A stretch of 64,000 bases of DNA from Eledone cirrhosa. Lineage: Eukaryota. The notes beneath the pieces are model-generated. The model did not search any database. It was not told the DNA's origin and saw nothing but the letters and a program-made list of their open reading frames with translations. Location of the stretch: assembly GCA_964016885.1 (NCBI GenBank), contig OZ024744.1, positions 28,210,001 through 28,274,000 on the forward strand. Reading direction: 5' to 3'. The translations under genes were made by a program, and so were the position numbers. Positions 14,150 through 58,182 of this stretch are shown here, in pieces. Position 1 is the first letter of the stretch; every line of letters starts with the position of its first letter.

Positions 14150-14181
14150 GTTGTTCTGGCTGTTACCACTGTTATTGTCAC

Positions 14182-14212
<31 letters not shown>

Positions 14213-28600: not shown

Positions 28601-31600
28601 TGTTGTCGTCGTTGTCATCACTGTTATCGTCGCTGTTGTCGTTGTTGTCCTTGTTATCATGGTTATTGTCACTGTTGTTGTCGCTGTTATCACTGTTATT
28701 GTCACTGTTGTTGTTGTCGCTGTTACTACTGTTATTGTCACTCTTGTTGTTGTTGTTGTCATTGTTATCACTGTTATTGTCACTATTGTTGTTGTCGCTG
28801 TTATCACTGTTATTGTCACTGTTGTTGTTGTTCTCGCTGTTATCACTGTTATTGTCATTGTTGTTGTTTTTGTTGTCGCTGTTATAACTGTTACTGTCAT
28901 TGTTGTCCCTGTTATCACTGTTATTGTCATTGTTGTTGTTGTCGCTGTTTTCACTGTTATCGTCACTGTTGTTGTTGTTGTCGCTGTTATAACTGTTATT
29001 GTCAAAGTTGTTGTTGTCGCTGTTATAACTGTTATTGTGTTGTCGCTGTTACCACTGTTATTGTCTTTGTTGTTGTTGTTCTCGCTGTTATCACTGTTAT
29101 TGTCATTGTTGTTGTTGTCGCTGTTATAACTGTTATTGTCACTGTTATTGTTCTTGTCGCTGTTACCACTGTTATTGTCTTTGTTGTTGTTGTGGTCGCT
29201 GTTATCACTGTCATTGTCACTGTTGTTGTTGTTGTCGCTGTTATCACTGTTATTGCCACTGTTGTTGTTGTCGCTGTTATCACTGTTATTGTCACTGTTG
29301 TTGTTGTTGTCGCTGTTATCACTGTTATTGTCACTGTTATCACTCTTATTGCCACTGTTGCTGTCGCTGTTATCACTGTTATTGTCACTGTTGTTGTTGT
29401 TGTCGCTGTTATCACTGTTATTGTCATTGTTGTTGTTGTCGCGGTTATCACTGTTATTGTCATTGTTGTTGTTGTTGTTGTTCTCGCTGTTATCACTGTT
29501 AATGTCACTGTTGTTGTCGCTGTTATAACTGTTATTGTCACTGTTGTTGTTGTTGTCGCTGTTATCACTGTTATTGTCACTGTTGTTGTCGCTGTTATCA
29601 CTGTTATTGTCACTGTTACAACTGTCATTGTTGTTGTTGTTATTGTCGCTGTTATCACTGTTATTGTCATTGTTGTTATTGTTGTTGTCGCTGTTATAAC
29701 TGTTATTGTCACTGTTGTTTTTGTTGTTGCCGCTGTTATCACTGTTATTGTCACTGTTGTTGTTGTCTCTGTTATCACTGTTATTGTCACTGTTGTTGTT
29801 GTTCTCGCTGTTATCACTGTTATTGTCATTGTTGTTGTCGCTGTTATCACTGTTATTGTCACTGTTGCAGTTGTTGTCGCTGTTATCTGTTATTGTGATT
29901 GTTGTTGTTGTCGCTGTTATAACTGTTATTGTTATTGTTGTTGTTGTTGTTCTCGCAGTTATCACTGTTATTGTCACTGTTGTTTTTGTTGCTGTCGGTG
30001 TTATAACTGTTATTAGTTAATGTTGTTGTTGTTCTCGCTGTTATAACTGTTATTGTCATTGTTGTTGTTGTCGCTGTTATCACTGTTATTGTCATTGTTG
30101 TTGTTGTCGCTATTATCACTGTTATTGTCACTGTTGTTGTTGTCGCTGTTATCACTGTTATTGTCACAGTTGTTGTCGCTGTTATCACTGTTATTGTCAT
30201 TGTTGTTGTTGTTGTTGTCGCTGTTATCACTGTTATTGTCATTGTTGTTGTCGCTATTATCGCTGTTATTGTCACTGTTGTTGTTGGTCTCGCTGGTATA
30301 ACTGTTATTGTCACTGTTGTTGTTGCTGTTATAACTGTTATTACACTGTTGTTGTTCTTGTCGCTGTTATAACTGTTATTGTCATTGTTGTTGTTGTCGC
30401 TGTTATCAATGTTATTGTCATTGTTGTTGTTGTTGTTCTCACTGTTATCACTGTTATTGTCACTGTTGTTGTTGTTGTTCTCGCTGTTATCACTCTTATT
30501 GTCACTATTGTTGTTGTTGTCGCCGTTATAACTGTTATTGTCACTGTTGTTGTTGTCGCTGTTTTAACTGTTATTGTCATTGTTGTTGTAGTCGCAGTTA
30601 TATATGTAATTGACACTGTTGTTGTTGTTCTCGCTGTTATCACTGTTATTATCACTGTTGTTGTTGTCGCTGTTATCACTGTTGTTGTTGTCGTTGTCGC
30701 TGTTATCACTGTCATTGTCACTGTTGTTGTCGCTGTTATCACTGTTATCGTCATCGTTGTTGTTGTTCTCGCTGTTATCACTGTTATTGTCACTGTTGTC
30801 GCTGTTATCACTGTTATTGTCACTGTTGTTGGTGTCGCTGTTATCACTGTTATTGTCACTGTTGTTCTTGTCGCTGTTATAACTCTTATTGTCATTGTTG
30901 TTGTTGTTGTTGTCGCTGTTATCACTGTTATTGTCACTGATGTTGTTGTTCTCGCTGTTATCACTGTTATTGTCACTGTTGTTGTTGTTGTTGTTGTTCT
31001 CGCTGTTATCACTGTTATTGTCATTGCTGTTGTTGTTGTCGCTGTTATCACTGTTATTGTCACTATTGTTGTTGTTCTCGCTGTTATTGTCATTGTTGTT
31101 GTTGTTGTTGTTGTTGTTGTCGCTGTTATCAGTGTTATTGTCACTGTTGTTGTTGTACTCGCTGTTATCACTGTTATTGTCATTGTTGTTGTTGTTGTCG
31201 CTGTTATCACTGTTATTGTCACTGTTGTTCTCGCTGTTATAACTGTTATTGTGACTGTTGTTGTTGTTATTGTTGTCGCTGTTATAACTGTTATTGTCAC
31301 TGTTGTTGCTGTCGCTGTTATAACTGTTATTGTTACTGTTGTTGTTGCTGTTGTCGCTGTCATAACTCTTATTGTCACTGTTGTTGTTGTTGTTGTTGTC
31401 GTTGTTATCACTGTTATTGTCATTATTGTTGTTCTCGCTGTTATCACTGTTATTGTCACTGTTGTTGTTGTCGTGTTATAACTTTTATTGTCACTATTTT
31501 TGTTGGCGCTGTTATCACTGTTATTGTCATTGTTGTTGTTGTCGCTGTTATCACTGTTATTGTCCCTGATGTTGTCGCTGTTATAACTGTTATTGTCAAT

Positions 31601-33250
31601 ATTGTCAATATTGTTGTTCTCGCTGCTATCCCTGTTATTGTTACAGTTGTTGTTGTTGTTCTCGCTGTTATCACAGTTATTGTCACTGTTGTTCTGTTGT
31701 TCTCGCTGTTATCACTGTTATTGTCACTGTTGTTGTTATTGTCGTAGCTGTTATATCTGTTATTGTCACTGTTATTGTTGTTGCTGTCGCTGTTATCACT
31801 GTTATTGTCATTGTTGTTGTTGTTGTACTCGCTGTTATCACTGTTATTGTCACTGTTGTTGTCGCTGTTATCACTGTTATTGTCATTGTTATTGTTGTTG
31901 TCGCTGTTATCACTGTTATTGTCACTGTTGTTGTTGTTGTCCCTGTTATCACTGTTATTGTCACTGTTGTTGTTGTTGTTGTCACTGTTATTTATAAATG
32001 TTATTGTCACTGTTGTTGTTGTCGCTGTTATAACTGTTATTGTCACTGTTGTTGTTGTCACTGTTATTTATAAATGTTATTGTCACTGTTGTTGTTGTCG
32101 CTGTTATGACTCTTATTGTCACTGTTGTTGTTGTCGCTGTTATTACTGTTATTGTCACTGTTTTTGTTGTTGTCGCTGTTATCACTGTTATTGTCACTGC
32201 TGATGTTGTTGTCTCTGTTATCACTGTTATTGTCATTGTTGTTATTGTTGTTGTCGCTGTCATAACTGTTATTGTCACTGTTGTTGTTGTCGCTGTTATC
32301 ACTGTTATTGTCACTGTTGTTGTCGCCGTTATCACTGTTATTGTCATTGTTGTTGTTGTCGCTGTTATAACTGTTATTGTCATTGTTGTTGTTGTTGTTG
32401 TTGTCGCTGTTATGACTGTTATTGTCATTGTTGTTGTCGCTGTTATCACTGTTATTTTCACTGTTGTTGTTGTTGTTGTCGTTGTTATAACTGTTATTGT
32501 CATAGTTGTTGTTGTCGCTGTTATAACTGTTATTGTCACTGTTGTTGTTGTTGTCGCTGTTATTGTCACTGTTGTTGTTTTGTTGTTGTTGTTGTCGCTG
32601 TTATCACTGTTATTGTTCTCTTGTTGTTGTTGTTGTCGCTGTTATAACTGTTATTGCCATTGTTGTTTTTGTTGTTGTTGTCTCTGTTATCACTGTTATT
32701 GTCACTGTTGTTGTTGTCGCTGTTATAACTGTTATTGTTATTGGTGTTGTTGTCGCTGTTATGACTGTTATTTTCATAATTGTTGTTGTCGTTGTTATCA
32801 CTGTTAATGTCATTGTTGTTGTTGTTTTTGTCGCTGTTATTACTGTTATTGTCACTGTGGTTGTTGTTGTTCTCGCTGTTATGACAGTTATTGTCACTGT
32901 TGTTGTTGTCGCTGTTATAACTATTATTGTCACTGTTGTTGTTGTTGTCGATGTTATTGTCACTGTTATTGCCACTGTTGTTGTTGTTGTTGTCTCTATT
33001 ATCACTGTTATTGTTACTGTTGTTGTTGTCGCTGTTATAACTGATATTGTTATTGGTGTTTTTGTTGTCGCTGTAATAACTGTTATTGTCATTATTGTTG
33101 TTGTCGCTGTTATCACTGTTATTGTCACTGTTGTTGTTTTGTTGTTGTTGTTGTCGTCGTTGTCATCACTGTTATTGTCACTTTTGTTGTTGTTGTTGTC
33201 GTTGTTATCATGCTTATTGTCACTGTTGTTGTTGTCGTTGTTGTCGTTGT
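14435..33250. repeat. ~18.7 kb tandem duplication, copy 1
   Basis: The ORF track recurs at constant offsets: +18802 (14620/33422 to 21235/40037), +18649 (23221/41870 to 31251/49900), +18607 (31372/49979) and +18688 (31988/50676 to 33086/51774). Boundaries were checked in the nucleotide sequence. Confidence 0.93.
22260..29770. repeat. Overlapping 1.7-4.9 kb block duplications
   Basis: Paired ORFs 22722/27642 and 23221/28132 (~4.9 kb); 24989/26721 and 25271/26961 (~1.7 kb); 25541/28547 and 26035/29035 (~3.0 kb). Boundaries approximate. Confidence 0.75.
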
Positions 33251-36200
33251 TATCACTGTTATTGTCATTGTTGTTGTTGTTGTCGCTGTTATCACTGTTA
33301 TTGTCACTGTTGTTGTCGCTGTTATAACTGTTATTGTCACTGTTGTTGTTGTTGTCGGTGTTATAACTGTTATTAGTTACTGTTGTTGTTGTTGATGTTG
33401 TTCTTGCTGTTATAACTATTATTGTCATTGTTGTTGTTGTTGCTGTCGGTGTTATTACTGTTAATGCCATTGTTGTTGTTGTTGTTGTCTCTGTTATCAC
33501 TGTTATTGTCACTGTTGTTGTCGCTGTTATTGTCACTGTTGTTGTCGTTGTTGTTGTTGTCGCTGTTATCACTGTTATTGTGCTGTTGTTGTTGTTGTCG
33601 CTGTTATAACTGTTAATGTCACTGTTGTTGTTCTCGCTGTTATCACTGTTATTGTCATTGTTGTTGTTATTGTTGTTGTTGTTGTCGCTGTTATCATTGT
33701 TATTGTCATTGTTGTTGTTATTGTCGCTGTTATAACTGTTATTGTCACTGTTGTTGTTGTCGCTGTTATCACTGTTATTGTAACTGTTGTTGTTGTTGTC
33801 ACTGTTATAAATGTTATTGTCACTGTTGTTTTTGTTGTCGCTTTTATCACTGTTATTGTCACTGTTGTTGTTGTCGCTGTTATAACTGTTATTGTCACTG
33901 TTTATGTTGTCGCTGTTATAACTGTTATTGTCACTGTTGTTGTTGTCCCTGTTATAACTGTTATTGTCACTGTTGTTGTTGTTGTCGCTGTTATCACTGT
34001 TATTGTCACTGTTATTGTCCTTGTCGCTGTTACCACTGTTATTGTCTTTGTTGTTGTTGTGGTCGCTGTTATCACTGTTATTGTCACTGTTGTTGTTGTT
34101 GTCGCTGTTATCACTGTTATTGCCACTGTTGTTGTTGTTGTCGCTGTTATCACTGTTATTGTCACTGTTGTTGTTGTTGTTGTCGCTGTTATCACTGTTA
34201 TTGTCACTGTTGTTGTTGTCGCTGTTATCACTGTTATTGCCACTGTTGCTGTTGTTGTCGCTGTTATCACTGTTATTGTCACTGTTGTTATTGTTGTCGC
34301 TGTTATCACTGTTATTGTCACTGTTGTTGTTGTCGCTGTTATCAATGTTATTGTCACTGTTGCTGTTGTTGTCGCTGTTATCACTGTTATTGTCATTGTT
34401 GTTGTTGTTGTCGCGGTTATCACTGTTATTGTCATTGTTGTTGTTGTTGTTGTTGTTGTTGTCGCTGTTATCATTGTTATTGTCATTGTTGTCTCTGTTA
34501 TCACTGTTATTGTCACTGTTGTTGTCGCTGTTACAACTGTCCTTGTTGTTGTTGTTATTGTCGCTGTTATCACTGTTATTGTCATTGTTGTTGTTATTGT
34601 CGCTGTTATCACTGTTATTGTCACTGTTGTTGTTGTCGCTGTTATCACTGTTATTGTAACTGTTGTTGTTGTCGCTGTTATAACTGTTATTGTCACTGTT
34701 TATGTTGTCGCTGTTATAACTGTTATTGTCACTGTTGTTGTTGTCCCTGTTATAACTGTTATTGTCACTGTTGTTGTTGTTGTCGCTGTTATCATTGTTA
34801 TTGTCACTGTTGTTGTTGTCGCTGTTATCACTGTTATTGTCATTGTTGTTGTTGTTGTCGCGGTTATCACTGTTAGTGTCACTGTTTTGTTGTTGTCGCT
34901 GTTATCACTGTTATTGTCACTGTTGTTGTTGTCGCTGTTATCACTGTTATTGTCACTGTTGTTGTCGCTGTTATCACTGTTATTGTCATTGTTGTTGTTG
35001 TTGTCGCGGTTATCACTGTTATTGTCATTGTTGTTGTTGTTGTCGCTGTTATCACTGTTATTGTCATTGTTGTTGTTGCCGCTGTTATAACTGTTATTGT
35101 CATTGTTGTTGTTGTTGTCGCTGTTATCACTGTTATTGTCATTGTTGTTGTTGTCGCTATTATCACTGTTATTGTCACTGTTGTTGTTATTGTCGCTGTT
35201 ATCACTGTTATTTTCACACTTGTTGTCGCTGTTCTCATTGATATTGTCATTGTTGTTGTTGTTGTCGCCGTTATCACTGTTATTGTCATTGTTTTTGTTG
35301 TTGCTGTCGGTGTTATAACTGTTATTAGTTACTGTTGTTGTTGTTGTTCTCGCTGTTATAACTATTATTGTCATTGTTGTTGTTGTCGCTGTTATAACTG
35401 TTATTGTCATTGTTGTTGTTGTTGTTGTCGCTGTTATAAGTGTTATTGTCACTGTTGATGTTGTTGTTCTCGCTGTTATCACTCTTATTTCACTATTGTT
35501 GTTGTTCTCGCTGTTATCACTCTTATTGTCACTATTGTTGTTGTTGTCGCCGTTATAACTGTTATTGTCATTGTTGTTGTAGTCGCAGTTATATATGTTA
35601 TTGACACTGTTCTTGTTGTTGTTATCGCTGTTATCACTGTTATTATCACTGTTGTTGTTGTTGTTGTTGTCGCTGTTATCACTGTTATTGTTCTGTTGTT
35701 GTTGTCGCTTTTATAACTGTTATTACCATTGTTGTTGTTGTTGTTGTTGTCTCTGTTATCACTGTTATTGTCACTGTTGTTGTTGTTGTCGCTGTTATCA
35801 CTGTTATTGTCACTGGTGTTGTTGTTGTTGCTGTTAGTGTCACTCTTGTTGTTTTGTTGTCGTTGTCCTCGTTGTCATCACTGTTATTGTCGCTGTTGTT
35901 GTTGTTGTCGTTGTTATCATGCTTGTTGTCACTGTTGTTGTTGTTGTGGTTGTTGTTGTTGTTATCACTGTTATTGTCACTGTTGTCTTTGTTTGTTGTC
36001 GTTGTCATGACTGTTATTGTCACTGTTGTTGTTTTGTTGTTGTTGTCGTCGTTGTCATCACTGTTATCGTCGGTGTTGTCGTTGTTGTCCTTGTTATCAT
36101 GGTTATTGTCACTGTTGTTGTCGTTGTTATCACTGTTATTGTCACTGTTGTTGTTGTCGCTGTTATTACTGTTATTGTCACTGTTGTCTTGTTGTTGTTG

Positions 36201-39200
36201 TCATTGTTATCACTGTTATTGTCACTATTGTTGTTGTCGCTGATATCACTGTTATTGTCACTGTTGTTGTTGTTCTCGCTGTTATCACTGTTATTGTCAT
36301 TGTTGTTGTTTTTGTTGTCGCTGTTATAACTGTTACTGTCATTGTTGTCCCTGTTATCACTGTTATTGTCATTGTTGTTGTTGTTGTCGCTGTTTTCACT
36401 GTTATCGTCACTGTTGTCGTTGTTGTCGCTGTTATAACTGTTATTGTCAAAGTTGTTGTTGTCGCTGTTATAACTGTTATTGTGTTGTCGCTGTTACCAC
36501 TGTTATTGTCTTTGTTGTTGTTGTTCTCGCTGTTATCACTGTTATTGTCATTGTTGTTGTTGTCGCTGTTATCACTTATATTAGTCATTGTTGTTGTTGT
36601 TGTCGCTGTTATAACTGTTATTGTCACTGATGTTGTTGTTGTCGCTGTTATAACTGTTATTGTCAAAGTTGTTGTTGTCGCTGTTATAACTGTTATTGTC
36701 ACTGTTATTGTCCTTGTCGCTGTTACCACTGTTATTGTCTTTGTTGTTGTTGTGGTCGCTGTTATCACTGTTATTGTCACTGTTGTTGTTGTTGTCGCTG
36801 TTATCACTGTTATTGCCACTGTTGTTGTTGTCGCTGTTATCACTGTTATTGTCACTGTTGTTGTTGTTATTGTCGCTGTTATCACTGTTATTGTCACTGT
36901 TGTTGTTGTCGCTGTTATCACTCTTATTGCCACTGTTGCTGTTGTTGTCGCTGTTATCACTGTTATTGTCATTGTTGTTGTTGTCGCGGTTATCACTGTT
37001 ATTGTCATTGTTGTTGTTGTTGTTGTTCTCGCTGTTATCACTGTTAATGTCACTGTTGTTGTCGCTGTTATAACTGTTATTGTCACTGTTGTTGTTGTTG
37101 TCGCTGTTATCACTGTTATTGTCACTGTTGTTGTCGCTGTTATCACTGTTATTGTCACTGTTGTGTCGCTGTTACAACTGTCATTGTTGTTGTTGTTATT
37201 GTCGCTGTTATCACTGTTATTGTCATTGTTGTTATTGTTGTTGTCGCTGTTATAACTGTTATTGTCACTGTTGTTTTTGTTGTTGCCGCTGTTATCACTG
37301 TTATTGTCACTGTTGTTGTTGTCTCTGTTATAACTGTTATTGTCACTGTTGTTGTTGTTCTGGCTGTTACCACTGTTATTGTCACTGTTGTTGTTGTTGT
37401 CGTTGATATCACTGTTATTGTCATTATTGTTATTGTCGCTGTTATCACTGTTATTGTCATTGTTGTTGTTGTTGTTGTTGTCGCTGTTATCACTGTTATT
37501 GTCACTGTTGTTGTTGTTGTCGCTTCTATAACTGTTATTGTCACTATTGCTGTTGTTGTTGTCGCTGTTATCACTCTTACTGTCATTGTTGTTGTTGTCG
37601 CTGTTATCACTGTTATTGCCACTGTTGCTGTTGTTGTCGTTGTTATCACTGTTATTGTCATTGTTTTTGTTGTTGTCGCTGTTATCACTGTTATTGTCAC
37701 TGTTGTTGTCGCTGTTATAACTGTTATTGTCACTGTTGTTGTTGTTGTCGGTGTTATAACTGTTATTAGTTACTGTTGTTGTTGTTGATGTTGTTCTTGC
37801 TGTTATAACTATTATTGTCATTGTTGTTGTTGTTGCTGTCGGTGTTATTACTGTTAATGCCATTGTTGTTGTCTCTGTTATCACTGTTATTGTCACTGTT
37901 GTTGTCGTTGTTGTTGTTGTCGCTGTTATCACTGTTATTGTTCTGTTGTTGTTGTCGCTGTTATAACTGTTAATGTCACTGTTGTTGTTCTCGCTGTTAT
38001 CACTGTTATTGTCATTGTTGTTGTTGTTGTTGTTGTTGTCGCTGTTATCATTGTTATTGTCATTGTTGTCGCTGTTATCACTGTTATTGTCACTGTTGTT
38101 GTCGCTGTTACAACTGTCCTTGTTGTTGTTGTTATTGCCGCTGTTATCACTGTTATTGTCATTGTTGTTTTTATTGTCGCTGTTATCACTGTTATTGTCA
38201 CTGTTGTTGTTGTCGCTGTTATCACTGATATTGTAACTGTTGTTGTTGTTGTCACTGTTATAAATGTTATTGTCACTTTTGTTTTTGTTGTCGCTTTTAT
38301 CACTGTTATTGTCACTGTTGTTGTTGTCGCTGTTATAACTGTTATTGTCACTGTTTATGTTGTCGCTGTTATAACTGTTATTGTCACTGTTGTTGTTGTC
38401 CCTGTTATAACTGTTATTGTCACTGTTGTTGTTGTTGTCGCTGTTATCACTGTTATTGTCACTGTTATTGTCCTTGTCGCTGTTACCACTGTTATTGTCT
38501 TTGTTGTTGTTGTGGTCGCTGTTATCACTGTTATTGTCACTGTTGTTGTTGTTGTCGCTGTTATCACTGTTATTGCCACTGTTGTTTTTGTTGTCGCTGT
38601 TATCACTGTTATTGTCACTGTTGTTGTTGTTGTCGCTGTTATCACTGTTATTGTCACTGTTGTAGTTGTCGCTGTTATCACTGTTATTGCCACTGTTGCT
38701 GTTGTTGTCGCTGTTATCACTGTTATTGTCACTGTTGTTATTGTTGTCGCTGTTATCTATGTTATTGTCACTGTTGTTGTTGTCGCTGTTATCACTGTTA
38801 TTGTCACTGTTGCTGTTGTTGTCGCTGTTATCACTGTTATTGTCATTGTTGTTGTTGTTGTCGCGGTTATCACTGTTATTGTCATTGTTGTTGTTGTTGT
38901 TGTTGTTGTTGTCGCTGTTATCATTGTTATTGTCATTGTTGTCGCTGTTATCACTGTTATTGTCACTGTTGTTGTCGCTGTTACAACTGTCCTTGTTGTT
39001 GTTGTTATTGTCGCTGTTATCACTGTTATTGTCATTGTTGTTGTTATTGTCGCTGTTATCACTGTTATTGTCACTGTTGTTGTTGTCGCTGTTATCACTG
39101 TTATTGTAACTGTTGTTGTTGTCGCTGTTATAACTGTTATTGTCACTGTTTTTGTTGTCGCTGTTATAACTGTTATTGTCACTGTTGTTGTTGTCCCTGT

Positions 39201-42200
39201 TATAACTGTTATTGTCACTGTTGTTGTTGTTGTCGCTGTTATCATTGTTATTGTCACTGTTGTTGTCGTGGTTATCACTGTTATTGTCATTGTTGTTGTT
39301 GTTGTCGCGGTTATCACTGTTATTGTCACTGTTTTGTTGTTGTCGCTGTTATCACTGTTATTGTCACTGTTGTTGTTGTCGCTGTTATCACTGTTATTGT
39401 CACTGTTGTTGTCGCTGTTATCACTGTTATTTTCATTGTTGTTGTTGTTGTCGCTGTTATAAGTGTTATTGTCACTGTTGATGTTGTTGTTCTCGCTGTT
39501 ATCACTCTTATTGTCACTATTGTTGTTGTTCTCGCTGTTATCACTCTTATTGTCACTATTGTTGTTGTTGTCGCCGTTATAACTGTTATTGTCATTGTTG
39601 TTGTAGTCGCAGTTATATATGGTATTGACACTGTTCTTGTTGTTGTTATCGCTGTTATCACTGTTATTATCACTGTTGTTGTTGTTGTTGTTGTCGCTGT
39701 TATCACTGTTATTGTTCTGTTGTTGTTGTCGCTTTTATAACTGTTATTACCATTGTTGTTGTTGTTGTTGTCTCTGTTATCACTGTTATTGTCACTGTTG
39801 TTGTTGTTGTCGCTGTTATCACTGTTATTGTCACTGGTGTTGTTGTTGTTGCTGTTAGTGTCACTCTTGTTGTTTTGTCGTCGTTGTCCTCGTTGTCATC
39901 ACTGTTATTGTCGCTGTTGTTGTTGTTGTCGTTGTTATCATGCTTGTTGTCACTGTTGTTGTTGTTGTGGTTGTTGTTGTTGTTATCACTGTTATTGTCA
40001 CTGTTGTCTTTGTTGTTGTCGTTGTCATGACTGTTATTGTCGCTGTTGTTGTTGTTGTTGTCGCTGTTATTGTCACTGTTGTTGTTTTGTTGTTGTTGTC
40101 GTCGTTGTCATCACTGTTATCGTCGCTGTTGTCGTTGTTGTCCTTGTTATCATGGTTATTGTCACTGTTGTTGTCGCTGTTATCACTGTTATTATCACTG
40201 TTGTTGTTGTCGCTGTTATTACTGTTATTGTCACTGTTGTTGTTGTTGTTGTCATTGTTATCACTGTTATTGTCACTATTGTTGTTGTCGCTGTTATCAC
40301 TGTTATTGTCACTGTTGTTGTTGTTCTCGCTGTTATCACTGTTATTGTCATTGTTGTTGTTTTTGTTGTCGCTGTTATAACTGTTACTGTCATTGTTGTC
40401 CCTGTTATCACTGTTATTGTCATTGTTGTTGTTGTTGTCGCTGTTTTCACTGTTATCGTCACTGTTGTTGTTGTTGTCGCTGTTATAACTGTTATTGTCA
40501 AAGTTGTTGTTGTCGCTGTTATAACTGTTATTGTGTTGTCGCTGTTACCACTGTTATTGTCTTTGTTGTTGTTGTTCTCGCTGTTATCACTGTTATTGTC
40601 ATTGTTGTTGTTGTCGCTGTTATCACTTATATTAGTCATTGTTGTTGTTGTTGTCGCTGTTATAACTGTTATTGTTATTGGTGTTTTTGTTGTCGCTGTA
40701 ATAACTGTTATTGTCATTATTGTTGTTGTCGCTGTTATCACTGTTATTGTCACTGTTGTTGTTTTGTTGTTGTTGTTGTCGTCGTTGTCATCACTGTTAT
40801 TGTCACTTTTGTTGTTGTTGTTGTCGTTGTTATCATGCTTATTGTCACTGTTGTTGTTGTCGTTGTTGTCGTTGTTATCACTGTTATTGTCATTGTTGTT
40901 GTTGTTGTCGCTGTTATCACTGTTATTGTCACTGTTGTTGTCGCTGTTATAACTGTTATTGTCACTGTGGTTGTTGTTGTTCTCGCTGTTATGACAGTTA
41001 TTGTCACTGTTGTTGTTGTCGCTGTTATAACTATTATTGTCACTGTTGTTGTTGTTGTCGATGTTATTGTCACTGTTATTGCCACTGTTGTTGTTGTTGT
41101 TGTCTCTATTATCACTGTTATTGTTACTGTTGTTGTTGTCGCTGTTATAACTGATATTGTTATTGGTGTTTTTGTTGTCGCTGTAATAACTGTTATTGTC
41201 ATTATTGTTGTTGTCGCTGTTATCACTGTTATTGTCACTGTTGTTGTTTTGTTGTTGTTGTTGTCGTCGTTGTCATCACTGTTATTGTCACTTTTGTTGT
41301 TGTTGTTGTCGTTGTTATCATGCTTATTGTCACTGTTGTTGTTGTCGTTGTTGTCGTTGTTATCACTGTTATTGTCATTGTTGTTGTTGTTGTCGCTGTT
41401 ATCACTGTTATTGTCACTGTTGTTGTTGTCGCTTCTATAACTGTTATTGTCACTATTGCTGTTGTTGTTGTCGCTGTTATCACTCTTACTGTCATTGTTG
41501 TTGTTGTCGCTGTTATCACTGTTATTGTCACTGTTGTTGTTGTCGCTGTTATCACTCTTATTGCCACTGTTGCTGTTGTTGTCGCTGTTATCACTGTTGT
41601 TGTCGCTGTTATCACTGTTATTGTCACTGTTGTTGTTGTTGTCGCTGTTATCACTGTTATTGTCATTGTTGTTGTTGTGGCGGTTATCACTGTTATTGTC
41701 ACTGTTGTTGTCGCTGTTATAACTGTTATTGTCACTGTTGTTGTTGTTGTCGCTGTTATCACTGTTATTGTCACTGTTGTTGTCGCTGTTATAACTGTTA
41801 TTGTCACTATTGTTGTTGTTGTCGCCGTTATAACTGTTATTGTCATTGTTGTTGTAGTCGCAGTTATATATGTTATTGACACTGTTCTTGTTGTTGTTAT
41901 CGCTGTTATCACTGTTATTATCACTGTTGTTGTTGTTGTTGTTGTCGCTGTTATCACTGTTATTGTTCTGTTGTTGTTGTCGCTTTTATAACTGTTATTA
42001 CCATTGTTGTTGTTGTTGTTGTCTCTGTTATCACTGTTATTGTCACTGTTGTTGTTGTTGTCGCTGTTATCACTGTTATTGTCACTGGTGTTGTTGTTGT
42101 TGCTGTTAGTGTCACTCTTGTTGTTTTGTTGTCGTTGTCATCACTGTTATTGTCGCTGTTGTTGTTGTTGTCGTTGTTATCATGCTTGTTGTCACTGTTG

Positions 42201-45200
42201 TTGTTGTTGTGGTTGTTGTTGTTGTTATCACTGTTTGTTGTCACTGTTGTCTTTGTTGCTGTCGTTGTCATGACTGTTATTGTCACTGTTGTTGTTTTGT
42301 TGTTGTTGTCGTCGTTGTCATCACTGTTATCGTCGGTGTTGTCGTTGTTGTCCTTGTTATCATGGTTATTGTCACTGTTGTTGTCGCTGTTATCACTGTT
42401 ATTGTCACTGTTGTTGTTGTCGCTGTTATTACTGTTATTGTCACTGTTGTTGTTGTTGTCATTGTTATCACTGTTATTGTCACTATTGTTGTTGTCGCTG
42501 TTATCACTGTTATTGTCACTGTTGTTGTTGTTCTCGCTGTTATCACTGTTATTGTCATTGTTGTTGTTTTTGTTGTCGCTGTTATAACTGTTACTGTCAT
42601 TGTTGTCCCTGTTATCACTGTTATTGTCATTGTTGTTGTTGTTGTCGCTGTTTTCACTGTTATCGTCACTGTTGTTGTTGTTGTCGCTGTTATAACTGTT
42701 ATTGTCAAAGTTGTTGTTGTCGCTGTTATAACTGTTATTGTGTTGTCGCTGTTACCACTGTTATTGTCTTTGTTGTTGTTGTTCTCGCTGTTATCACTGT
42801 TATTGTCATTGTTGTTGTTGTCGCTGTTATCACTTGTATTAGTCATTGTTGTTGTTGTTGTCGCTGTTATAACTGTTATTGTCACTGATGTTGTTATTGT
42901 CGCTGTTATAACTGTTATTGTCAAAGTTGTTGTTGTTGTCGCTGTTATATCTGTTATTGTCACTGTTATTGTTCTTGTCGCTGTTACCACTGTTATTGTC
43001 TTTGTTGTTGTTGTGGTCGCTGTTATCACTGTTATTGTCACTGTTGTTGTTGTTGTCGCTGTTATCACTGTTATTGCCACTGTTGTTGTTGTCGCTGTTA
43101 TCACTGTTATTGTCACTGTTGTTGTTGTTGTCGCTGTTATCACTGTTATTGTCACTGTTGTTGTTGTCGCTGTTATCACTCTTATTGCCACTGTTGCTGT
43201 TGTTGTCGCTGTTATCACTGTTATTGTCACTGTTGTTGTTGTTGTCGCTGTTATCACTGTTATTGTCATTGTTGTTGTTGTCGCGGTTATCACTGTTATT
43301 GTCATTGTTGTTGTTGTTGTTGTTCTCGCTGTTATCACTGTTAATGTCACTGTTGTTGTCGCTGTTATAACTGTTATTGTCACTATTGTTGTTGTTGTCG
43401 CTGTTATCACTGTTATTGTCACTGTTGTTGTCGCTGTTATCACTGTTATTGTCACTGTTGTTGTCGCTGTTACAACTGTCATTGTTGTTGTTGTTATTGT
43501 CGCTGTTATCACTGTTATTGTCATTGTTGTTATTGTTGTTGTCGCTGTTATAACTGTTATTGTCACTGTTGTTTTTGTTGTTGCCGCTGTTATCACTGTT
43601 ATTGTCACTGTTGTTGTTGTCTCTGTTATAACTCTTATTGTCACTGTTGTTGTTGTCGCTGTTATCACTGTTATTGACACTGATGTTGCTGTTGTTCTCG
43701 CTGTTTTCACTGTTATTGTCACTGTTGTTGTTGTTGTTCTGGCTGTTACCACTGTTATTGTCACTGTTGTTGTTGTTGTTGTTGTCGTTGTTATCACTGT
43801 TATTGTCATTATTGTTATTGTCGCTGTTATCACTGTTATTGTCATTGTTGTTGTTGTTGTTGTCGCTGTTATCACTGTTATTGTCACTGTTGTTGTTGTT
43901 GTCGCTTCTATAACTGTTATTGTCACTATTGCTGTTGTTGTTGTCGCTGTTATCACTCTTACTGTCATTGTTGTTGTTGTCGCTGTTATCACTGTTATTG
44001 TCACTGTTGTTGTTGTCGCTGTTATCACTCTTATTGCCACTGTTGCTGTTGTTGTCGCTGTTATCACTGTTATTGTCACTGTTGTTGTTGTTGTCGCTGT
44101 TATCACTGTTTTTGTCATTGTTGTTGTTGTGGCGGTTATCACTGTTATTGTCACTGTTGTCTTTGTTGTTGTCGTTGTCATGACTGTTATTGTCGATGTT
44201 GTTGTTGTTGTTGTCGCTGTTATTGTCACTGTTGTTGTTTTGTTGTTGTTGTCGTCGTTGTCATCACTGTTATCGTCGCTGTTGTCGTTGTTGTCCTTGT
44301 TATCATGGTTATTGTCACTGTTGTTGTCGCTGTTATCACTGTTATTGTCACTGTTGTTGTTGTCGCTGTTACTACTGTTATTGTCACTGTTGTTGTTGTT
44401 GTCGTCATTGTTATCACTGTTATTGTCACTATTGTTGTTGTCGCTGTTATCACTGTTATTGTCACTGTTGTTGTTGTTCTCGCTGTTATCATTGTTATTG
44501 TCATTGTTGTTGTTTTTGTTGTCGCTGTTATAACTGTTACTGTCATTGTTGTCCCTGTTATCACTGTTATTGTCATTGTTGTTGTTGTTGTCGCTGTTTT
44601 CACTGTTATCGTCACTGTTGTTGTTGTTGTCGCTGTTATAACTGTTATTGTCAAAGTAGTTGTTGTCGCTGTTATAACTGTTATTGTGTTGTCGCTGTTA
44701 CCACTGTTATTGTCTTTGTTGTTGTTGTTCTCGCTGTTATCACTGTTATTGTCATTGTTGTTGTTGTCGCTGTTATAACTGTTATTGTCACTGTTATTGT
44801 TCTTGTCGCTGTTACCACTGTTATTGTCTTTGTTGTTGTTGTGGTCGCTGTTATCACTGTTATTGTCACTGTTGTTGTTGTTGTCGCTGTTATCACTGTG
44901 ATTGTCACTGTTATCACTCTTATTGCCACTGTTGCTGTCGCTGTTATCACTGTTATTGTCACTGTTGTTGTTGTTGTCGCTGTTATCACTGTTATTGTCA
45001 TTGTTGTTGTTGTCGCGGTTATCACTGTTATTGTCATTGTTGTTGTTGTTGTTGTTCTCGCTGTTATCACTGTTAATGTCACTGTTGTTGTCGCTGTTAT
45101 AACTGTTATTGTCACTGTTGTTGTTGTTGTCGCTGTTATCACTGTTATTGTCACTGTTGTTGTCGCTGTTATCACTGTTATTGTCACTGTTGTTGTCGCT

Positions 45201-48200
45201 GTTACAACTGTCATTGTTGTTGTTGTTATTGTCGCTGTTATCACTGTTATTGTCATTGTTGTTATTGTTGTTGTCGCTGTTATAACTGTTATTGTCACTG
45301 TTGTTTTTGTTGTTGCCGCTGTTATCACTGTTATTGTCACTGTTGTTGTTGTCTCTGTTATAACTGTTATTGTCACTGTTGTTGTTGTCGCTGTTATCAC
45401 TGTTATTGACACTGTTGTTGCTGTTGTTCTCGCTGTTATCACTGTTATTGTCACTGTTGTTGTTGTTGTTCTGGCTGTTACCACTGTTATTGTCACTGTT
45501 GTTGTTGTTGTTGTTGTCGCTGTTATCACTGTTATTGTCATTGTTGTTGTTGTTGTCGCTGTTATCACTGTTATTGTCACTGTTGTTGTTGTCGCTTCTA
45601 TAACTGTTATTGTCACTATTGCTGTTGTTGTTGTCGCTGTTATCACTCTTACTGTCATTGTTGTTGTTGTCGCTGTTATCACTGTTATTGTCACTGTTGT
45701 TGTTGTCGCTGTTATCACTCTTATTGCCACTGTTGCTGTTGTTGTCGCTGTTATCACTGTTGTTGTCGCTGTTATCACTGTTATTGTCACTGTTGTTGTT
45801 GTTGTCGCTGTTATCACTGTTATTGTCATTGTTGTTGTTGTGGCGGTTATCACTGTTATTGTCACTGTTGTTGTCGCTGTTATAACTGTTATTGTCACTG
45901 TTGTTGTTGTTGTCGCTGTTATCACTGTTATTGTCACTGTTGTTGTCGCTGTTATCACTGTTATTGTCACTGTTTTTGTCGCTGTTACAACTGTCATTGT
46001 TGTTGTTGTTATTGTCGCTGTTATCACTGTTATTGTCATTGCTGTTATTGTTGTTGTCGCTGTTATAACTGTTATTCTCACTGTTGTTTTTGTTGTTGCC
46101 GCTGTTATCACAGTTATTGTCACTGTTGTTGTTGTCTCTGTTATAACTGTTATTGTCACTGTTGTTGTTGTCACTGTTATTGTCACTGTTGTTGTTGTTC
46201 TCGCTGTTATCACTGTTATTGTCACAGTTGTTGTTGTCGCTGTTATCACTGTTATTGTCATTGTTGTTGTTGCCGCTGTTATAACTGTTATTGTCATTGT
46301 TGTTGTTGTCGCTGTTATCACTGTTATTGTCATTGTTGTTGTTGTCGCTATTATCACTGTTATTGTCACTGTTGTTGTTATTGTCGCTGTTATCAGTGTT
46401 ATTTTCACAGTTGTTGTCGCTGTTCTCATTGATATTGTCATTGTTGTTGTTGTTGTCGCCGTTATCACTGTTATTGTCATTGTTTTTGTTGTTGCTGTCG
46501 GTGTTATAACTGTTATTAGTTACTGTTGTTGTTGTTGTTCTCGCTGTTATAACTATTATTGTCATTGTTGTTGTTGTCGCTGTTATAACTGTTATTGTCA
46601 TTGTTGTTGTTGTCGCTGTTATAAGTGTTATTGTCACTGTTGATGTTGTTGTTCTCGCTGTTATCACTCTTATTGTCACTATTGTTGTTGTTCTCGCTGT
46701 TATCACTCTTATTGTCACTATTGTTGTTGTTGTCGCCGTTATAACTGTTATTGTCATTGTTGTTGTAGTCGCAGTTATATATGTTATTGACACTGTTCTT
46801 GTTGTTGTTATCGCTGTTATCACTGTTATTATCACTGTTGTTGTTGTTGTTGTTGTCGCTGTTATCACTGTTATTGTTCTGTTGTTGTTGTCGCTTTTAT
46901 AACTGTTATTACCATTGTTGTTGTTGTTGTTGTCTCTGTTATCACTGTTATTGTCACTGTTGTTGTTGTCGCTGTTATCACTGTTATTGTCACTGGTGTT
47001 GTTGTTGTTGCTGTTAGTGTCACTCTTGTTGTTTTGTTGTCGTTGTCCTCGTTGTCATCACTGTTATTGTCGCTGTTGTTGTTGTTGTCGTTGTTATCAT
47101 GCTTGTTGTCACTGTTGTTGTTGTTGTGGTTGTTGTTGTTGTTATCACTGTTATTGTCACCTTTGTCTTTGTTGTTGTCGTTGTCATGACTGTTATTGTC
47201 GCTGTTGTTGTTGTTGTCGCTGTTATTGTCACTGTTGTTGTTTTGTTGTTGTTGTCGTCGTTGTCATCACTGTTATCGTCGCTGTTGTCGTTGTTGTCCT
47301 TGTTATCATGGTTATTGTCACTGTTGTTGTCGCTGTTATCACTGTTATTGTCACTGTTGTTGTTGTCGCTGTTACTACTGTTATTGTCACTCTTGTTGTT
47401 GTTGTTGTCATTGTTATCACTGTTATTGTCACTATTGTTGTTGTCGCTGTTATCACTGTTATTGTCACTGTTGTTGTTGTTCTCGCTGTTATCACTGTTA
47501 TTGTCATTGTTGTTGTTTTTGTTGTCGCTGTTATAACTGTTACTGTCATTGTTGTCCCTGTTATCACTGTTATTGTCATTGTTGTTGTTGTCGCTGTTTT
47601 CACTGTTATCGTCACTGTTGTTGTTGTTGTCGCTGTTATAACTGTTATTGTCAAAGTTGTTGTTGTCGCTGTTATAACTGTTATTGTGTTGTCGCTGTTA
47701 CCACTGTTATTGTCTTTGTTGTTGTTGTTCTCGCTGTTATCACTGTTATTGTCATTGTTGTTGTTGTCGCTGTTATAACTGTTATTGTCACTGTTATTGT
47801 TCTTGTCGCTGTTACCACTGTTATTGTCTTTGTTGTTGTTGTGGTCGCTGTTATCACTGTCATTGTCACTGTTGTTGTTGTTGTCGCTGTTATCACTGTT
47901 ATTGCCACTGTTGTTGTTGTCGCTGTTATCACTGTTATTGTCACTGTTGTTGTTGTTGTCGCTGTTATCACTGTTATTGTCACTGTTATCACTCTTATTG
48001 CCACTGTTGCTGTCGCTGTTATCACTGTTATTGTCACTGTTGTTGTTGTTGTCGCTGTTATCACTGTTATTGTCATTGTTGTTGTTGTCGCGGTTATCAC
48101 TGTTATTGTCATTGTTGTTGTTGTTGTTGTTCTCGCTGTTATCACTGTTAATGTCACTGTTGTTGTCGCTGTTATAACTGTTATTGTCACTGTTGTTGTT

Positions 48201-51200
48201 GTTGTCGCTGTTATCACTGTTATTGTCACTGTTGTTGTCGCTGTTATCACTGTTATTGTCACTGTTACAACTGTCATTGTTGTTGTTGTTATTGTCGCTG
48301 TTATCACTGTTATTGTCATTGTTGTTATTGTTGTTGTCGCTGTTATAACTGTTATTGTCACTGTTGTTTTTGTTGTTGCCGCTGTTATCACTGTTATTGT
48401 CACTGTTGTTGTTGTCTCTGTTATCACTGTTATTGTCACTGTTGTTGTTGTTCTCGCTGTTATCACTGTTATTGTCATTGTTGTTGTCGCTGTTATCACT
48501 GTTATTGTCACTGTTGCAGTTGTTGTCGCTGTTATCTGTTATTGTGATTGTTGTTGTTGTCGCTGTTATAACTGTTATTGTTATTGTTGTTGTTGTTGTT
48601 CTCGCAGTTATCACTGTTATTGTCACTGTTGTTTTTGTTGCTGTCGGTGTTATAACTGTTATTAGTTAATGTTGTTGTTGTTCTCGCTGTTATAACTGTT
48701 ATTGTCATTGTTGTTGTTGTCGCTGTTATCACTGTTATTGTCATTGTTGTTGTTGTCGCTATTATCACTGTTATTGTCACTGTTGTTGTTGTCGCTGTTA
48801 TCACTGTTATTGTCACAGTTGTTGTCGCTGTTATCACTGTTATTGTCATTGTTGTTGTTGTTGTTGTCGCTGTTATCACTGTTATTGTCATTGTTGTTGT
48901 CGCTATTATCGCTGTTATTGTCACTGTTGTTGTTGGTCTCGCTGGTATAACTGTTATTGTCACTGTTGTTGTTGCTGTTATAACTGTTATTACACTGTTG
49001 TTGTTCTTGTCGCTGTTATAACTGTTATTGTCATTGTTGTTGTTGTCGCTGTTATCAATGTTATTGTCATTGTTGTTGTTGTTGTTCTCACTGTTATCAC
49101 TGTTATTGTCACTGTTGTTGTTGTTGTTCTCGCTGTTATCACTCTTATTGTCACTATTGTTGTTGTTGTCGCCGTTATAACTGTTATTGTCACTGTTGTT
49201 GTTGTCGCTGTTTTAACTGTTATTGTCATTGTTGTTGTAGTCGCAGTTATATATGTAATTGACACTGTTGTTGTTGTTCTCGCTGTTATCACTGTTATTA
49301 TCACTGTTGTTGTTGTCGCTGTTATCACTGTTGTTGTTGTCGTTGTCGCTGTTATCACTGTCATTGTCACTGTTGTTGTCGCTGTTATCACTGTTATCGT
49401 CATCGTTGTTGTTGTTCTCGCTGTTATCACTGTTATTGTCACTGTTGTCGCTGTTATCACTGTTATTGTCACTGTTGTTGGTGTCGCTGTTATCACTGTT
49501 ATTGTCACTGTTGTTCTTGTCGCTGTTATAACTCTTATTGTCATTGTTGTTGTTGTTGTTGTCGCTGTTATCACTGTTATTGTCACTGATGTTGTTGTTC
49601 TCGCTGTTATCACTGTTATTGTCACTGTTGTTGTTGTTGTTGTTGTTCTCGCTGTTATCACTGTTATTGTCATTGCTGTTGTTGTTGTCGCTGTTATCAC
49701 TGTTATTGTCACTATTGTTGTTGTTCTCGCTGTTATTGTCATTGTTGTTGTTGTTGTTGTTGTTGTTGTCGCTGTTATCACTGTTATTGTCACTGTTGTT
49801 GTTGTACTCGCTGTTATCACTGTTATTGTCATTGTTGTTGTTGTTGTCGCTGTTATCACTGTTATTGTCACTGTTGTTCTCGCTGTTATAACTGTTATTG
49901 TGACTGTTGTTGTTGTTATTGTTGTCGCTGTTATAACTGTTATTGTCACTGTTGTTGCTGTCGCTGTTATAACTCTTATTGTCACTGTTGTTGTTGTTGT
50001 TGTTGTCGTTGTTATCACTGTTATTGTCATTATTGTTGTTCTCGCTGTTATCACTGTTATTGTCACTGTTGTTGTTGTCGTGTTATAACTTTTATTGTCA
50101 CTATTTTTGTTGGCGCTGTTATCACTGTTATTGTCATTGTTGTTGTTGTCGCTGTTATCACTGTTATTGTCCCTGATGTTGTCGCTGTTATAACTGTTAT
50201 TGTCAATATTGTCAATATTGTTGTTCTCGCTGCTATCCCTGTTATTGTTACAGTTGTTGTTGTTGTTCTCGCTGTTATCACAGTTATTGTCACTGTTGTT
50301 CTGTTGTTCTCGCTGTTATCACTGTTATTGTCACTGTTGTTGTTGTTGTCGTAGCTGTTATATCTGTTATTGTCACTGTTATTGTTGTTGCTGTCGCTGT
50401 TATCACTGTTATTGTCATTGTTGTTGTTGTTGTACTCGCTGTTATCACTGTTATTGTCACTGTTGTTGTCGATGTTATCACTGTTATTTTCATTGTTGTT
50501 TTTGTTGTCACTGTTATAACTGTTATTGTCATTGTTGTTGTTGTTGTCGCTGTTATCACTGTTATTGTCATTGTTATTGTTGTTGTCGCTGTTATCACTG
50601 TTATTGTCACTGTTGTTGTTGTTGTCCCTGTTATCACTGTTATTGTCACTGTTGTTGTTGTTGTTGTTGTCACTGTTATTTATAAATGTTATTGTCACTG
50701 TTGTTGTTGTCGCTGTTATAACTGTTATTGTCACTGTTGTTGTTGTCACTGTTATTTATAAATGTTATTGTCACTGTTGTTGTTGTCGCTGTTATGACTC
50801 TTATTGTCACTGTTGTTGTTGTCGCTGTTATTACTGTTATTGTCACTGTTTTTGTTGTTGTCGCTGTTATCACTGTTATTGTCACTGCTGATGTTGTTGT
50901 CTCTGTTATCACTGTTATTGTCATTGTTGTTATTGTTGTTGTCGCTGTCATAACTGTTATTGTCACTGTTGTTGTTGTCGCTGTTATCACTGTTATTGTC
51001 ACTGTTGTTGTCGCCGTTATCACTGTTATTGTCATTGTTGTTGTTGTCGCTGTTATAACTGTTATTGTCATTGTTGTTGTTGTTGTTGTTGTCGCTGTTA
51101 TGACTGTTATTGTCATTGTTGTTGTCGCTGTTATCACTGTTATTTTCACTGTTGTTGTTGTTGTTGTCGTTGTTATAACTGTTATTGTCATAGTTGTTGT

Positions 51201-51938
51201 TGTCGCTGTTATAACTGTTATTGTCACTGTTGTTGTTGTTGTCGCTGTTATTGTCACTGTTGTTGTTTTGTTGTTGTTGTTGTCGCTGTTATCACTGTTA
51301 TTGTTCTCTTCTTGTTGTTGTTGTCGCTGTTATAACTGTTATTGCCATTGTTGTTTTTGTTGTTGTTGTCTCTGTTATCACTGTTATTGTCACTGTTGTT
51401 GTTGTCGCTGTTATAACTGTTATTGTTATTGGTGTTGTTGTCGCTGTTATGACTGTTATTTTCATAATTGTTGTTGTCGTTGTTATCACTGTTAATGTCA
51501 TTGTTGTTGTTGTTTTTGTCGCTGTTATTACTGTTATTGTCACTGTGGTTGTTGTTGTTCTCGCTGTTATGACAGTTATTGTCACTGTTGTTGTTGTCGC
51601 TGTTATAACTATTATTGTCACTGTTGTTGTTGTTGTCGATGTTATTGTCACTGTTATTGCCATTGTTGTTGTTGTTGTTGTCTCTATTATCACTGTTATT
51701 GTTACTGTTGTTGTTGTCGCTGTTATAACTGATATTGTTATTGGTGTTTTTGTTGTCGCTGTAATAACTGTTATTGTCATTATTGTTGTTGTCGCTGTTA
51801 TCACTGTTATTGTCACTGTTGTTGTTTTGTTGTTGTTGTTGTCGTCGTTGTCATCACTGTTATTGTCACTTTTGTTGTTGTTGTTGTCGTTGTAATCATG
51901 CTTATTGTCACTGTTGTTGTTGTCGTTGTTGTCGTTGT
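33237..51938. repeat. ~18.7 kb tandem duplication, copy 2
   Basis: Matches 14435-33250 except for a replaced block at 40676-41797, a few SNPs and monomer-sized indels. Match to copy 1 ends at 51939. Confidence 0.93.
40676..41797. other. Mosaic replacement block in copy 2 built from three other parts of the array
   Basis: 40676-40968 matches 33051-33343; ~40961-41425 matches 32851-33315; ~41370-41790 matches ~26885-27305 (or its twin ~45535-45955). It stands in place of 21874-23148 of copy 1. Confidence 0.85.
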
Positions 51939-53719: not shown

Positions 53720-53914
53720 GCTGTTATCACTGTTATTGTCATTGTTGTTGTTGTTTTCGCTGTTATCACTGTTATTGTCATTGTTGTTGTTGTTGTCGCT
53801 GTTATCACTGTTATTGTCATTGTTGTTGTTGTTGTCGCTGTTATCACTGTTATTGTCATTGTTGTTGTTGTTGTCGCTGTTATCACTGTTATTGTCATTG
53901 TTGTTGTTGTTGTC
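53720..53914. repeat. Five tandem 39-bp monomers, four of them identical (GCTGTTATCACTGTTATTGTCATTGTTGTTGTTGTTGTC)
   Basis: Units start at 53720, 53759, 53798, 53837 and 53876. Confidence 0.9.
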
Positions 53915-56900: not shown

Positions 56901-57349
56901 TGTCGTCGTTGTCATCACTGTTATCGTCGCTGTTGTCCTTGTTATCATGGTTATTGTCACTGTTGTTGTCGCTGTTATCACTGTTATTGTCACTGTTGTT
57001 GTCGCTGTTATAACTGTTATTGTCACTGTTGTTGTTGTTGTTGTCATTGTTATCACTGTTATTGTCACTATTGTTGTTGTCGCTGTTATCACTGTTATTG
57101 TCACTGTTGTTGTTGTTCTCGCTGTTATCACTGTTATTGTCACTGTTGTTGTGTTGTTGTCGCTGTTATAACTGTTATTGTCAAAGTTGTTGTTGTCGCT
57201 GTTATAACTGTTATTGTCACTGTTATTGTGTTGTCGCTGTTACCACTGTTATTGTCTTTGTTGTTGTTGTTCTCGCTGTTATCACTGTTATTGTCATTGT
57301 TGTTGTTGTCGCTGTTATCACTTATATTGTCATTGTTGTTGTTGTCGCT

Positions 57350-58149
57350 GTTATAACTGTTATTGTCACTGTTATTGTTCTTGTCGCTGTTACCACTGTT
57401 ATTGCCTTTGTTGTTGTTGTGGTGGCTGTTATCACTGTTATTGTCACTGTTGTTGTTGTTGTCGCTGTTATCACTGTTATTGCCACTGTTGTTGTTGTTG
57501 TCGCTGTTATCACTGTTATTGCCACTGTTGTTGTTGTTGTCGCTGTTACCACTGTTATTGCCACTGTTGTTGTTGTTGTCGCTGTTATCACTGTTATTGT
57601 CACTGTTGTTGTTGTCGCTGTTATCACTGTTATTGTCACTGTTGTTTTTGTTGTCGTCGCTGTTATCACTGTTATTGTCACTGTTGCTGTTGTTGTCGCT
57701 GTTATCACTGTTATTGACATTGTTGTTGTTATTATCGCTGTTATCACTGTTATTGTCATTGTTGTTGTTGTTGTTCTCGCTGTTATCACTGTTATTGTCA
57801 CTGTTGTTGTCGCTGTTATAACTGTTATTGTCACAGTTGCTGTTGTCGGTGTTATAACTGTTATTAGTTACTGTTGTTGTTGTTTTTGTTGTTCTTGCTG
57901 TTATAACTATTATTGTCATTGTTGTTGTTGTTGCTGTCGGTGTTATTACTGTTATTGCCATTGTTGTTGTTGTTGTTGTTGTCTCTGTTATCACTGTTAT
58001 TGTCACTGTTGTTGTTGTCGCTGTTATTGTCACTGTTGTTGTTGTTGTTGTTGTCGCTGTAATCACTGTTATTGTTCTGTTGTTGTTGTCGCTGTTATAA
58101 CTGTTAATGTCACTGTTGTTGTTGTTCTCGCTGTTATCACTGTTATTGT

Positions 58150-58182
<33 letters not shown>

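What the first reader, a model, noticed from the sequence alone, without database searches (positions are those of the whole stretch)
40676..41797. Three-donor patchwork that copies the duplication junction twice: a serial template-switching footprint
Seen: copy 2 leaves register with copy 1 at 40676 (=21874). It copies 33051-33343, jumps back to copy 32851-33315, then copies ~26885-27305 (or its twin ~45535-45955), and rejoins at ~41798 (=23149), a net change of -153 bp. The first two pieces contain the chimeric 33237-33250 junction and copy-1 alleles (GCCACTG, TTATCATG) rather than the 51.6-51.9 kb alleles (GCCATTG, TAATCATG). All switches occur in monomer register. Established: serial short templated insertions are the signature of MMBIR/FoSTeS or multi-invasion gap repair. 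Inference: a ~1.3 kb gap was repaired from donors kilobases away, after or during the 18.7 kb duplication. This is a mechanism for HOR shuffling distinct from simple unequal crossover.
Basis: partly seen in the sequence, partly recalled or inferred. Interest (0 to 1): 0.75.

Follow-up and report, generated by a model that had tools for sequence, protein, structure and literature searches.

The report
Template-switch mosaic inside satellite duplication
In a 39-base satellite array, a 1.1-kb stretch is an exact mosaic of three nearby pieces; it likely records a broken or stalled replication fork that restarted several times, a kind of event already described in plant centromeres.

Summary
The mosaic is in the assembly. 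40670-41792 equals 33045-33343, then 32842-33316, then 26872-27306 (or 45521-45955), all switches in monomer register, net -153 bp. An internal 170-mer occurs once in the genome, so there is no single exact donor. It is the only cluster of four unique junctions within 1.2 kb in 516 kb of array. The left duplicated arm (A, 7,439 bp) has 0 differences and the right arm (C, 10,102 bp) has 12. Piece 2 carries a probably derived copy-1 allele, so it was copied after the C copies diverged. The second 'junction copy' is ambiguous, because donor 3 supplies the same 66 bases. Best reading: one young template-switching event, anchored near 33.3 kb, laid down the A copy and pieces 1-2 together; the '18.7-kb duplication' is then a composite of two ages. 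The class is known (complex tandem duplications in Arabidopsis centromeres, ascribed to break-induced replication). This scan noted a similar patched duplication elsewhere in this genome. No long reads were available, so an assembly artefact is not excluded.

The parts
8697..64000 (+). 39-bp satellite array (GTT-rich strand) with a variable (GTT)n run; part of an array of at least 510 kb
14435..21873 (+). Block A, template of the identical copy A'
   Evidence: 7,439-bp exact match to 33237-40675
21874..23148 (+). Block B, without a young copy; its last ~1 kb is an older ~99% paralogue of 27108-28175
23149..33250 (+). Block C1; 12 differences from C2, 7 derived here
26872..27306 (+). Donor of piece 3 (twin at 45521-45955)
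32842..33343 (+). Donor zone of pieces 1 and 2, around junction J0; inferred stall or break site at about 33316-33343
   Evidence: the break site is inference
33237..33250 (+). Junction J0 (end of C joined to start of A), 14-bp overlap; derived, since older paralogues keep the upstream-A and C-downstream adjacencies
33237..40675 (+). A', identical copy of A
40670..40968 (+). Piece 1 = 33045-33343; entry junction J1 has a 6-bp exact overlap inside 35 of 36 identical bases
40952..41426 (+). Piece 2 = 32842-33316; junction J2 has a 17-bp overlap and steps back 485 bp on the same donor; carries copy-1 allele 32975
41358..41792 (+). Piece 3 = 26872-27306 or 45521-45955; junction J3 has a 69-bp overlap
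41793..41797 (+). Exit junction J4; base 41793 matches neither donor (a short consensus-type template or a mutation)
41798..51938 (+). Block C2; 5 of the 12 differences derived here; 41798-42058 also equals 28060-28320

Best explanation
The block is an exact mosaic of three nearby array segments, and it was likely laid down, together with the identical 7.4-kb copy to its left, by one recent repair event in which a broken or stalled DNA end near 33.3 kb likely switched templates several times between repeats. Inferred steps: (1) an older duplication had already produced the two C blocks, which then diverged at 12 sites; (2) an end just past junction J0 invaded the start of block A through about 70-110 bp of identity and copied 7.36 kb; (3) it came back to the DNA just upstream of the break (33051), ran to 33343, stepped back 485 bp (32859) and ran to 33316. 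Two sub-variants cannot be separated from one haplotype: a pure 8,110-bp insertion (33317-41426), in which piece 3 is the linker of the older duplication; or a replacement of an older A-B copy (8.7 kb), in which piece 3 and J4 belong to the young event too.
For: Shown: exact donors and in-register junctions. 33317-41426 equals 14515-21873 + 33051-33343 + 32859-33316 without a mismatch. A has 0 differences in 7,439 bp, C has 12 in 10,102 bp, 7 derived in C1 and 5 in C2. Pieces 1 and 2 come from one 500-bp zone next to where A' begins, and their donors end within 27 bp of each other, which one fixed break site explains. 4 of 34 unique junction points in 516 kb fall within 1.2 kb here; no other such cluster; P = 0.002 under uniform placement, post hoc. 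The J0+J2 170-mer occurs once in the genome. Mosaic insertions with preserved periodicity are documented de novo in Arabidopsis centromeres and ascribed to BIR with template switching (10.1101/2025.06.02.657473, sections 7 and 12 read).
Against: No read or second haplotype confirms the block. The near-collinearity (-153 bp) is a coincidence under the pure-insertion variant. Uneven divergence is not special to this locus: a 15.5-kb tandem duplication elsewhere in the array has 6 differences in its first 3.9 kb and then 11,613 identical bases with no patch, and 8 of C's 12 differences sit in its last 2.1 kb, so the A-versus-C contrast is weaker than the uniform P value suggests. The polarity of 32975 rests on four older paralogues that match 207 bp on one side and only 13 bp on the other; a wider gap-free comparison was uninformative. 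A final sequence cannot show that junctions formed in one cell cycle.
Confidence: 0.55

Rival explanations
1. One reading: one 18.8-kb tandem duplication (A-B-C twice), later loss of the second B and gap repair from three donors. The identity of A and A' is then chance or a separate long in-register homogenisation.
For: Explains the -153-bp collinearity directly. The end of piece 3 is a paralogue of B (41594-41747 = 22191-22344), and 41798-42058 equals 28060-28320, as expected if the right-hand end invaded the 4.9-kb paralogue. Long identical tracts inside diverged duplications occur elsewhere in the array.
Against: 0 versus 12 differences across the patch. It gives no reason why pieces 1 and 2 come from the J0 zone 7.6 kb away and end within 27 bp of each other. 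The 'during' version conflicts with allele 32975.
Confidence: 0.15
2. Successive ordinary events: several single-junction tandem duplications (about 18.8, 4.2, 7.6 and 8.1 kb) and one ~20-kb deletion, in different generations, left the remnants side by side.
For: Simple in-register tandem duplications are common here: at least 6 young ones of 1.9-8.2 kb in 516 kb. Each junction alone looks like theirs (overlaps of 10-41 bp).
Against: It needs about five events, with four breakpoints inside 500 bp around J0, and still does not explain why A and A' are identical. Four junctions within 1.2 kb are rare under uniform placement (P = 0.002).
Confidence: 0.12
3. The patch is the scar of an exchange between homologous chromosomes: a young A-B-C duplication on one haplotype joined to the C block of another haplotype that differs by about 0.1%.
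For: Explains identical A copies, diverged C copies with derived alleles on both sides and the collinearity in two events.
Against: Does not explain why donors 1 and 2 cluster at J0. No second haplotype is in the assembly: the 8 copies of 33040-33250 at 98% or more among 38 listed matches (40 of 1,480 candidates scored) all lie in this array.
Confidence: 0.08
4. Assembly or library artefact: a chimeric amplified molecule, or a phase switch through the identical 7.4-kb A block.
For: No long reads could be laid; the short-read contigs lack even words private to A' and piece 1, so they do not test the locus. Sequencing technology and heterozygosity of this assembly are unknown to me.
Against: Overlaps of 6-69 bp are far shorter than read-overlap joins (general knowledge), all pieces are error-free and in register, and older two-junction mosaics occur in the same array. 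In replicated Arabidopsis assemblies only 15 errors lay in centromeres (10.1101/2025.06.02.657473, section 5), though that is another species and satellite.
Confidence: 0.08

Closest known systems
Complex tandem duplications (CTD) in Arabidopsis CEN178 arrays (10.1101/2025.06.02.657473; abstract, passages and sections 5, 7, 12 read; supplements and figures not seen)
   Same: Inserted sequence is a mosaic of nearby repeat units, periodicity is kept, chimeric monomers form at the breakpoints; ascribed to BIR with template switching.
   Different: There the events are de novo against a known ancestor and add 1-31 units (mean 1,870 bp). Here the event is inferred from one haplotype, is about 8.1 kb (~210 monomers of 39 bp), uses donors up to 19 kb away and revisits an older junction. 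Centromere status of this array was not tested.
MMBIR / FoSTeS (Hastings, Ira, Lupski 2009, PMC2621351; passages read)
   Same: Discontinuous duplication with several template switches from a single broken end.
   Different: Those junctions have 2-5 nt of microhomology in non-repeated DNA; here the overlaps are 6, 17 and 69 bp inside near-identical monomers, and no piece is inverted.
BIR template switching among repeats in yeast (PMC3459980, abstract only) and RAD52/PIF1-dependent change of human alpha-satellite arrays (PMC11034957, abstract only)
   Same: Homology-directed, repeat-guided switching or array expansion.
   Different: Experimental systems with genetic tests; no enzyme dependence can be tested here.
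Multi-invasion-induced rearrangement (PMC10499017; short abstract and section headings only)
   Same: One end engages more than one donor.
   Different: By its headings it concerns translocations between donors; I did not test it, and the serial return to one zone fits sequential copying better (inference).

Membership tests
Complex tandem duplication (Dong et al.) | New sequence is an exact mosaic of nearby repeat units | tested here: met
Complex tandem duplication (Dong et al.) | Repeat periodicity preserved at all switches | tested here: met
   (alignments in register; the anchor parse was rough)
Complex tandem duplication (Dong et al.) | Net insertion relative to the ancestral haplotype | tested here: inconclusive
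   An 8,110-bp pure insertion is consistent with the sequence, but so is a replacement; no ancestral haplotype
Complex tandem duplication (Dong et al.) | Arises as one event | not testable with these tools
   Needs a pedigree or population haplotypes; junction clustering is indirect support
MMBIR / FoSTeS | Junction microhomology of 2-5 nt, too short for homologous recombination | tested here: not met
   Exact overlaps 6, 17 and 69 bp inside longer near-identity; J4 has a base found in neither donor
MMBIR / FoSTeS | Discontinuous duplication with multiple template switches | tested here: met
MMBIR / FoSTeS | One-ended break; Rad51-independent annealing | not testable with these tools
   Needs genetics
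Multi-invasion-induced rearrangement | Simultaneous invasion of two donors by one end | not testable with these tools
   A final sequence does not separate simultaneous from serial invasion
Higher-order repeat | Multi-monomer unit repeated many times in tandem | tested here: not met
   The 18.7-kb unit has two copies, with arms of unequal divergence

The most novel reading that the evidence does not exclude
An older duplication junction acted as a fixed stall or break site: the restarting strand left for a distant repeat, copied 7.4 kb, then looped back twice onto the DNA just behind its own starting point. Apparent two-copy 'super-units' in satellites can thus be composites of events of different age, assembled by self-templated looping, and identity-based dating of such units misleads.
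Probability: 0.25. Interest if true: 0.55.

Novelty: new member of a known kind. Interest (0 to 1): 0.3.

Why it matters
It is a base-resolved natural example, outside Arabidopsis, of the mosaic duplications that BIR models of satellite turnover predict, with a census of simpler events in the same array for scale (at least 6 young single-junction duplications against this one four-junction cluster). It warns that a seemingly single large duplication in a satellite can be of two ages. It does not add a new mechanism, and nothing suggests a function.

Tried and rejected
Search for one contiguous donor: none among matches of 90 bp or more in 264 kb, none by greedy parse in 516 kb, and the internal 170-mer is unique in the genome as an exact match; a slightly diverged donor outside the fetched 664 kb is not excluded. 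A genome search with the whole block was not scored. Read check: 8 runs listed, best share of words 0.41; three sets of short-read contigs and two RAD runs were laid, no listed piece bridged a junction and words private to the locus had no depth, so they are no evidence either way. The idea that the J4 base came from the start of A (73-bp match) was dropped: 24 of 2,586 loci match as well or better. The idea that all C differences sit in one copy (error-prone synthesis) was dropped: 7 versus 5. The idea that A mutates less was not supported: mean piece length against older paralogues is 85 bp in A and 90 bp in the first 8 kb of C. A literature search for the satellite motif gave 0 papers, which does not show that it is undescribed. 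PMC10676400 (abstract only) describes duplication-deletions without template switching at a fork barrier; not tested here. PMC13011684 (passages) only restates out-of-register BIR. Scan notes near this place: none; by words: none.

Full report
Setting. The window is one 39-bp satellite with a variable (GTT)n run and a strand switch near 8690. It lies on a 136-Mb contig. Of 664 kb examined (window plus 60 fetched stretches), about 516 kb is this array; it ends about 215 kb after the window start and its upstream end was not reached. Whether it is centromeric was not tested.

Observation. Writing A = 14435-21873, B = 21874-23148 and C1 = 23149-33250, the window reads A, B, C1, A', patch, C2. A' (33237-40675) equals A. 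The patch is 33045-33343 (299 bp), 32842-33316 (475 bp) and 26872-27306 or its twin 45521-45955 (435 bp); C2 starts at 41798 and the offset changes by -153. Exact overlaps are 14 bp at the old junction J0, 6 bp at J1 (35 of 36 bases alike), 17 bp at J2 and 69 bp at J3. At J4 base 41793 matches neither donor. All switches are in monomer register. For scale, random in-register pairs share a median exact run of 4 bp; 11% reach 17 bp and 0.1% reach 69 bp (rough anchors). J0 is derived: older paralogues keep the adjacency upstream of A (18668-18863) and downstream of C2 (four copies at +86 to +125 kb).

More than chance. The patch tiles in 4 pieces, while 15 of 15 control windows need 11-25. A scan for non-collinear abutting matches of 200 bp or more on the same strand gave 135 junction keys; keeping those whose spanning word occurs once and merging neighbours left 34 points. 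The patch holds 4 of them within 1.2 kb, and no other place has more than 2 (P = 0.002 under uniform placement, post hoc). A 170-mer across the copied J0 and J2 occurs once in the 3.0-Gb assembly, and near-identical copies of the donor zone were found only in this array (40 of 1,480 candidates scored).

First, A and A' differ at 0 of 7,439 bases, while C1 and C2 differ by 9 substitutions and 3 length changes in 10,102 bases. Derived states fall on both copies: 7 in C1 and 5 in C2. With uniform rates P = 0.0013; with only the first 8 kb of C (4 differences) P = 0.02-0.07. Second, piece 2 carries the C1 allele at 32975, which four older paralogues suggest is derived, so it was copied after C1 and C2 parted; this argues against 'during the duplication'. 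Third, donor 3's match begins at 41358, inside the J0 overlap, so the bases after the second 'junction copy' need not come from A. Fourth, the donors of pieces 1 and 2 lie in one 500-bp zone at the start of A' and end at 33343 and 33316; repair of a gap at 40676 gives no reason for that.

Best explanation (inferred). The stretch 33317-41426 (8,110 bp) equals 14515-21873 + 33051-33343 + 32859-33316 exactly. I read this as one young event. An end just past J0 invaded the start of A, copied 7.36 kb, returned to the duplex just behind the break, ran to the break zone, stepped back 485 bp and ran to it again. Either the strand then resumed on the original sequence (pure insertion; piece 3 is the linker of an older 10.5-kb complex duplication of C), or it switched on through piece 3 to C2, replacing an older A-B copy. 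Both variants make the '18.7-kb duplication' a composite of two ages. I put 0.55 on this family of readings.

Results against it. The -153-bp collinearity is a coincidence under pure insertion. The end of piece 3 is a paralogue of B, and 41798-42058 equals 28060-28320, which suits repair from a right-hand end. Uneven divergence occurs elsewhere without a patch: a 15.5-kb duplication has 6 differences in 3.9 kb and then 11,613 identical bases. No read evidence exists: only short-read contigs and RAD reads were served, and they lack words private to the locus.

Background. The same array holds at least 6 young single-junction tandem duplications of 1.9-8.2 kb and at least one two-junction mosaic. 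The patch is the complex end of an ordinary local process. An unreviewed note of this scan describes a 56-kb satellite duplication with a patched junction elsewhere in this genome (e1-10325877), and another a young 31-kb duplication already carrying rearrangements (e1-9909488); I did not check either.

Comparison with what is known. Dong et al. (10.1101/2025.06.02.657473; abstract, passages, sections 5, 7 and 12) report that de novo centromeric insertions are tandem duplications or 'complex tandem duplications' made of mosaics of nearby units, always in period, and ascribe them to BIR with template switching. This block works like those; whether it is a net insertion from one event could not be tested. 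It fails the strict MMBIR criterion of 2-5 nt microhomology (PMC2621351, passages). Template switching among repeats in yeast BIR (PMC3459980, abstract) and RAD52/PIF1-dependent change of human arrays (PMC11034957, abstract) give the general frame. Multi-invasion (PMC10499017, abstract and headings) was not testable.

Verdict. It is a new, well-resolved member of a known kind, interest 0.3. The most novel reading not excluded is self-templated looping at an older junction that builds composite super-units (probability 0.25, interest 0.55 if true).

Noticed in passing
window 8674-8697: The array changes strand here, with a short T/A spacer. The opposite-strand block runs about 220 kb upstream to a second switch near G000:C28:27,999,000.
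   Followed up: partly
G000:C28:28,086,962-28,117,951 (L059 to L020): A 15.5-kb tandem duplication with 6 differences in its first 3.9 kb and then 11,613 identical bases, with a simple 14-bp-overlap junction; it suggests long in-register homogenisation or nested events.
   Followed up: partly
G000:C28:28,345,528-28,346,352 (L008): A two-junction mosaic: about 825 bp copied from 2.6 or 5.6 kb upstream lies between two other blocks.
   Followed up: partly
window 31132-33206 versus 49781-51894: 8 of the 12 differences between the C copies, including all three length changes (42, 78 and 3 bp), lie in the last 2.1 kb; unexplained.
   Followed up: partly
G000:C28:27.91-28.43 Mb: At least six young single-junction tandem duplications of 1.9-8.2 kb, identical or nearly so; the array ends near 28.425 Mb, and related sequence also lies near 27.63 Mb.
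   Followed up: partly
G000:C28:28,023,000-28,046,000 (L053 to L055): A nest of young overlapping duplications (offsets 1.9, 2.6, 6.0, 7.9 and 8.6 kb) that may hold another complex event.
   Followed up: no
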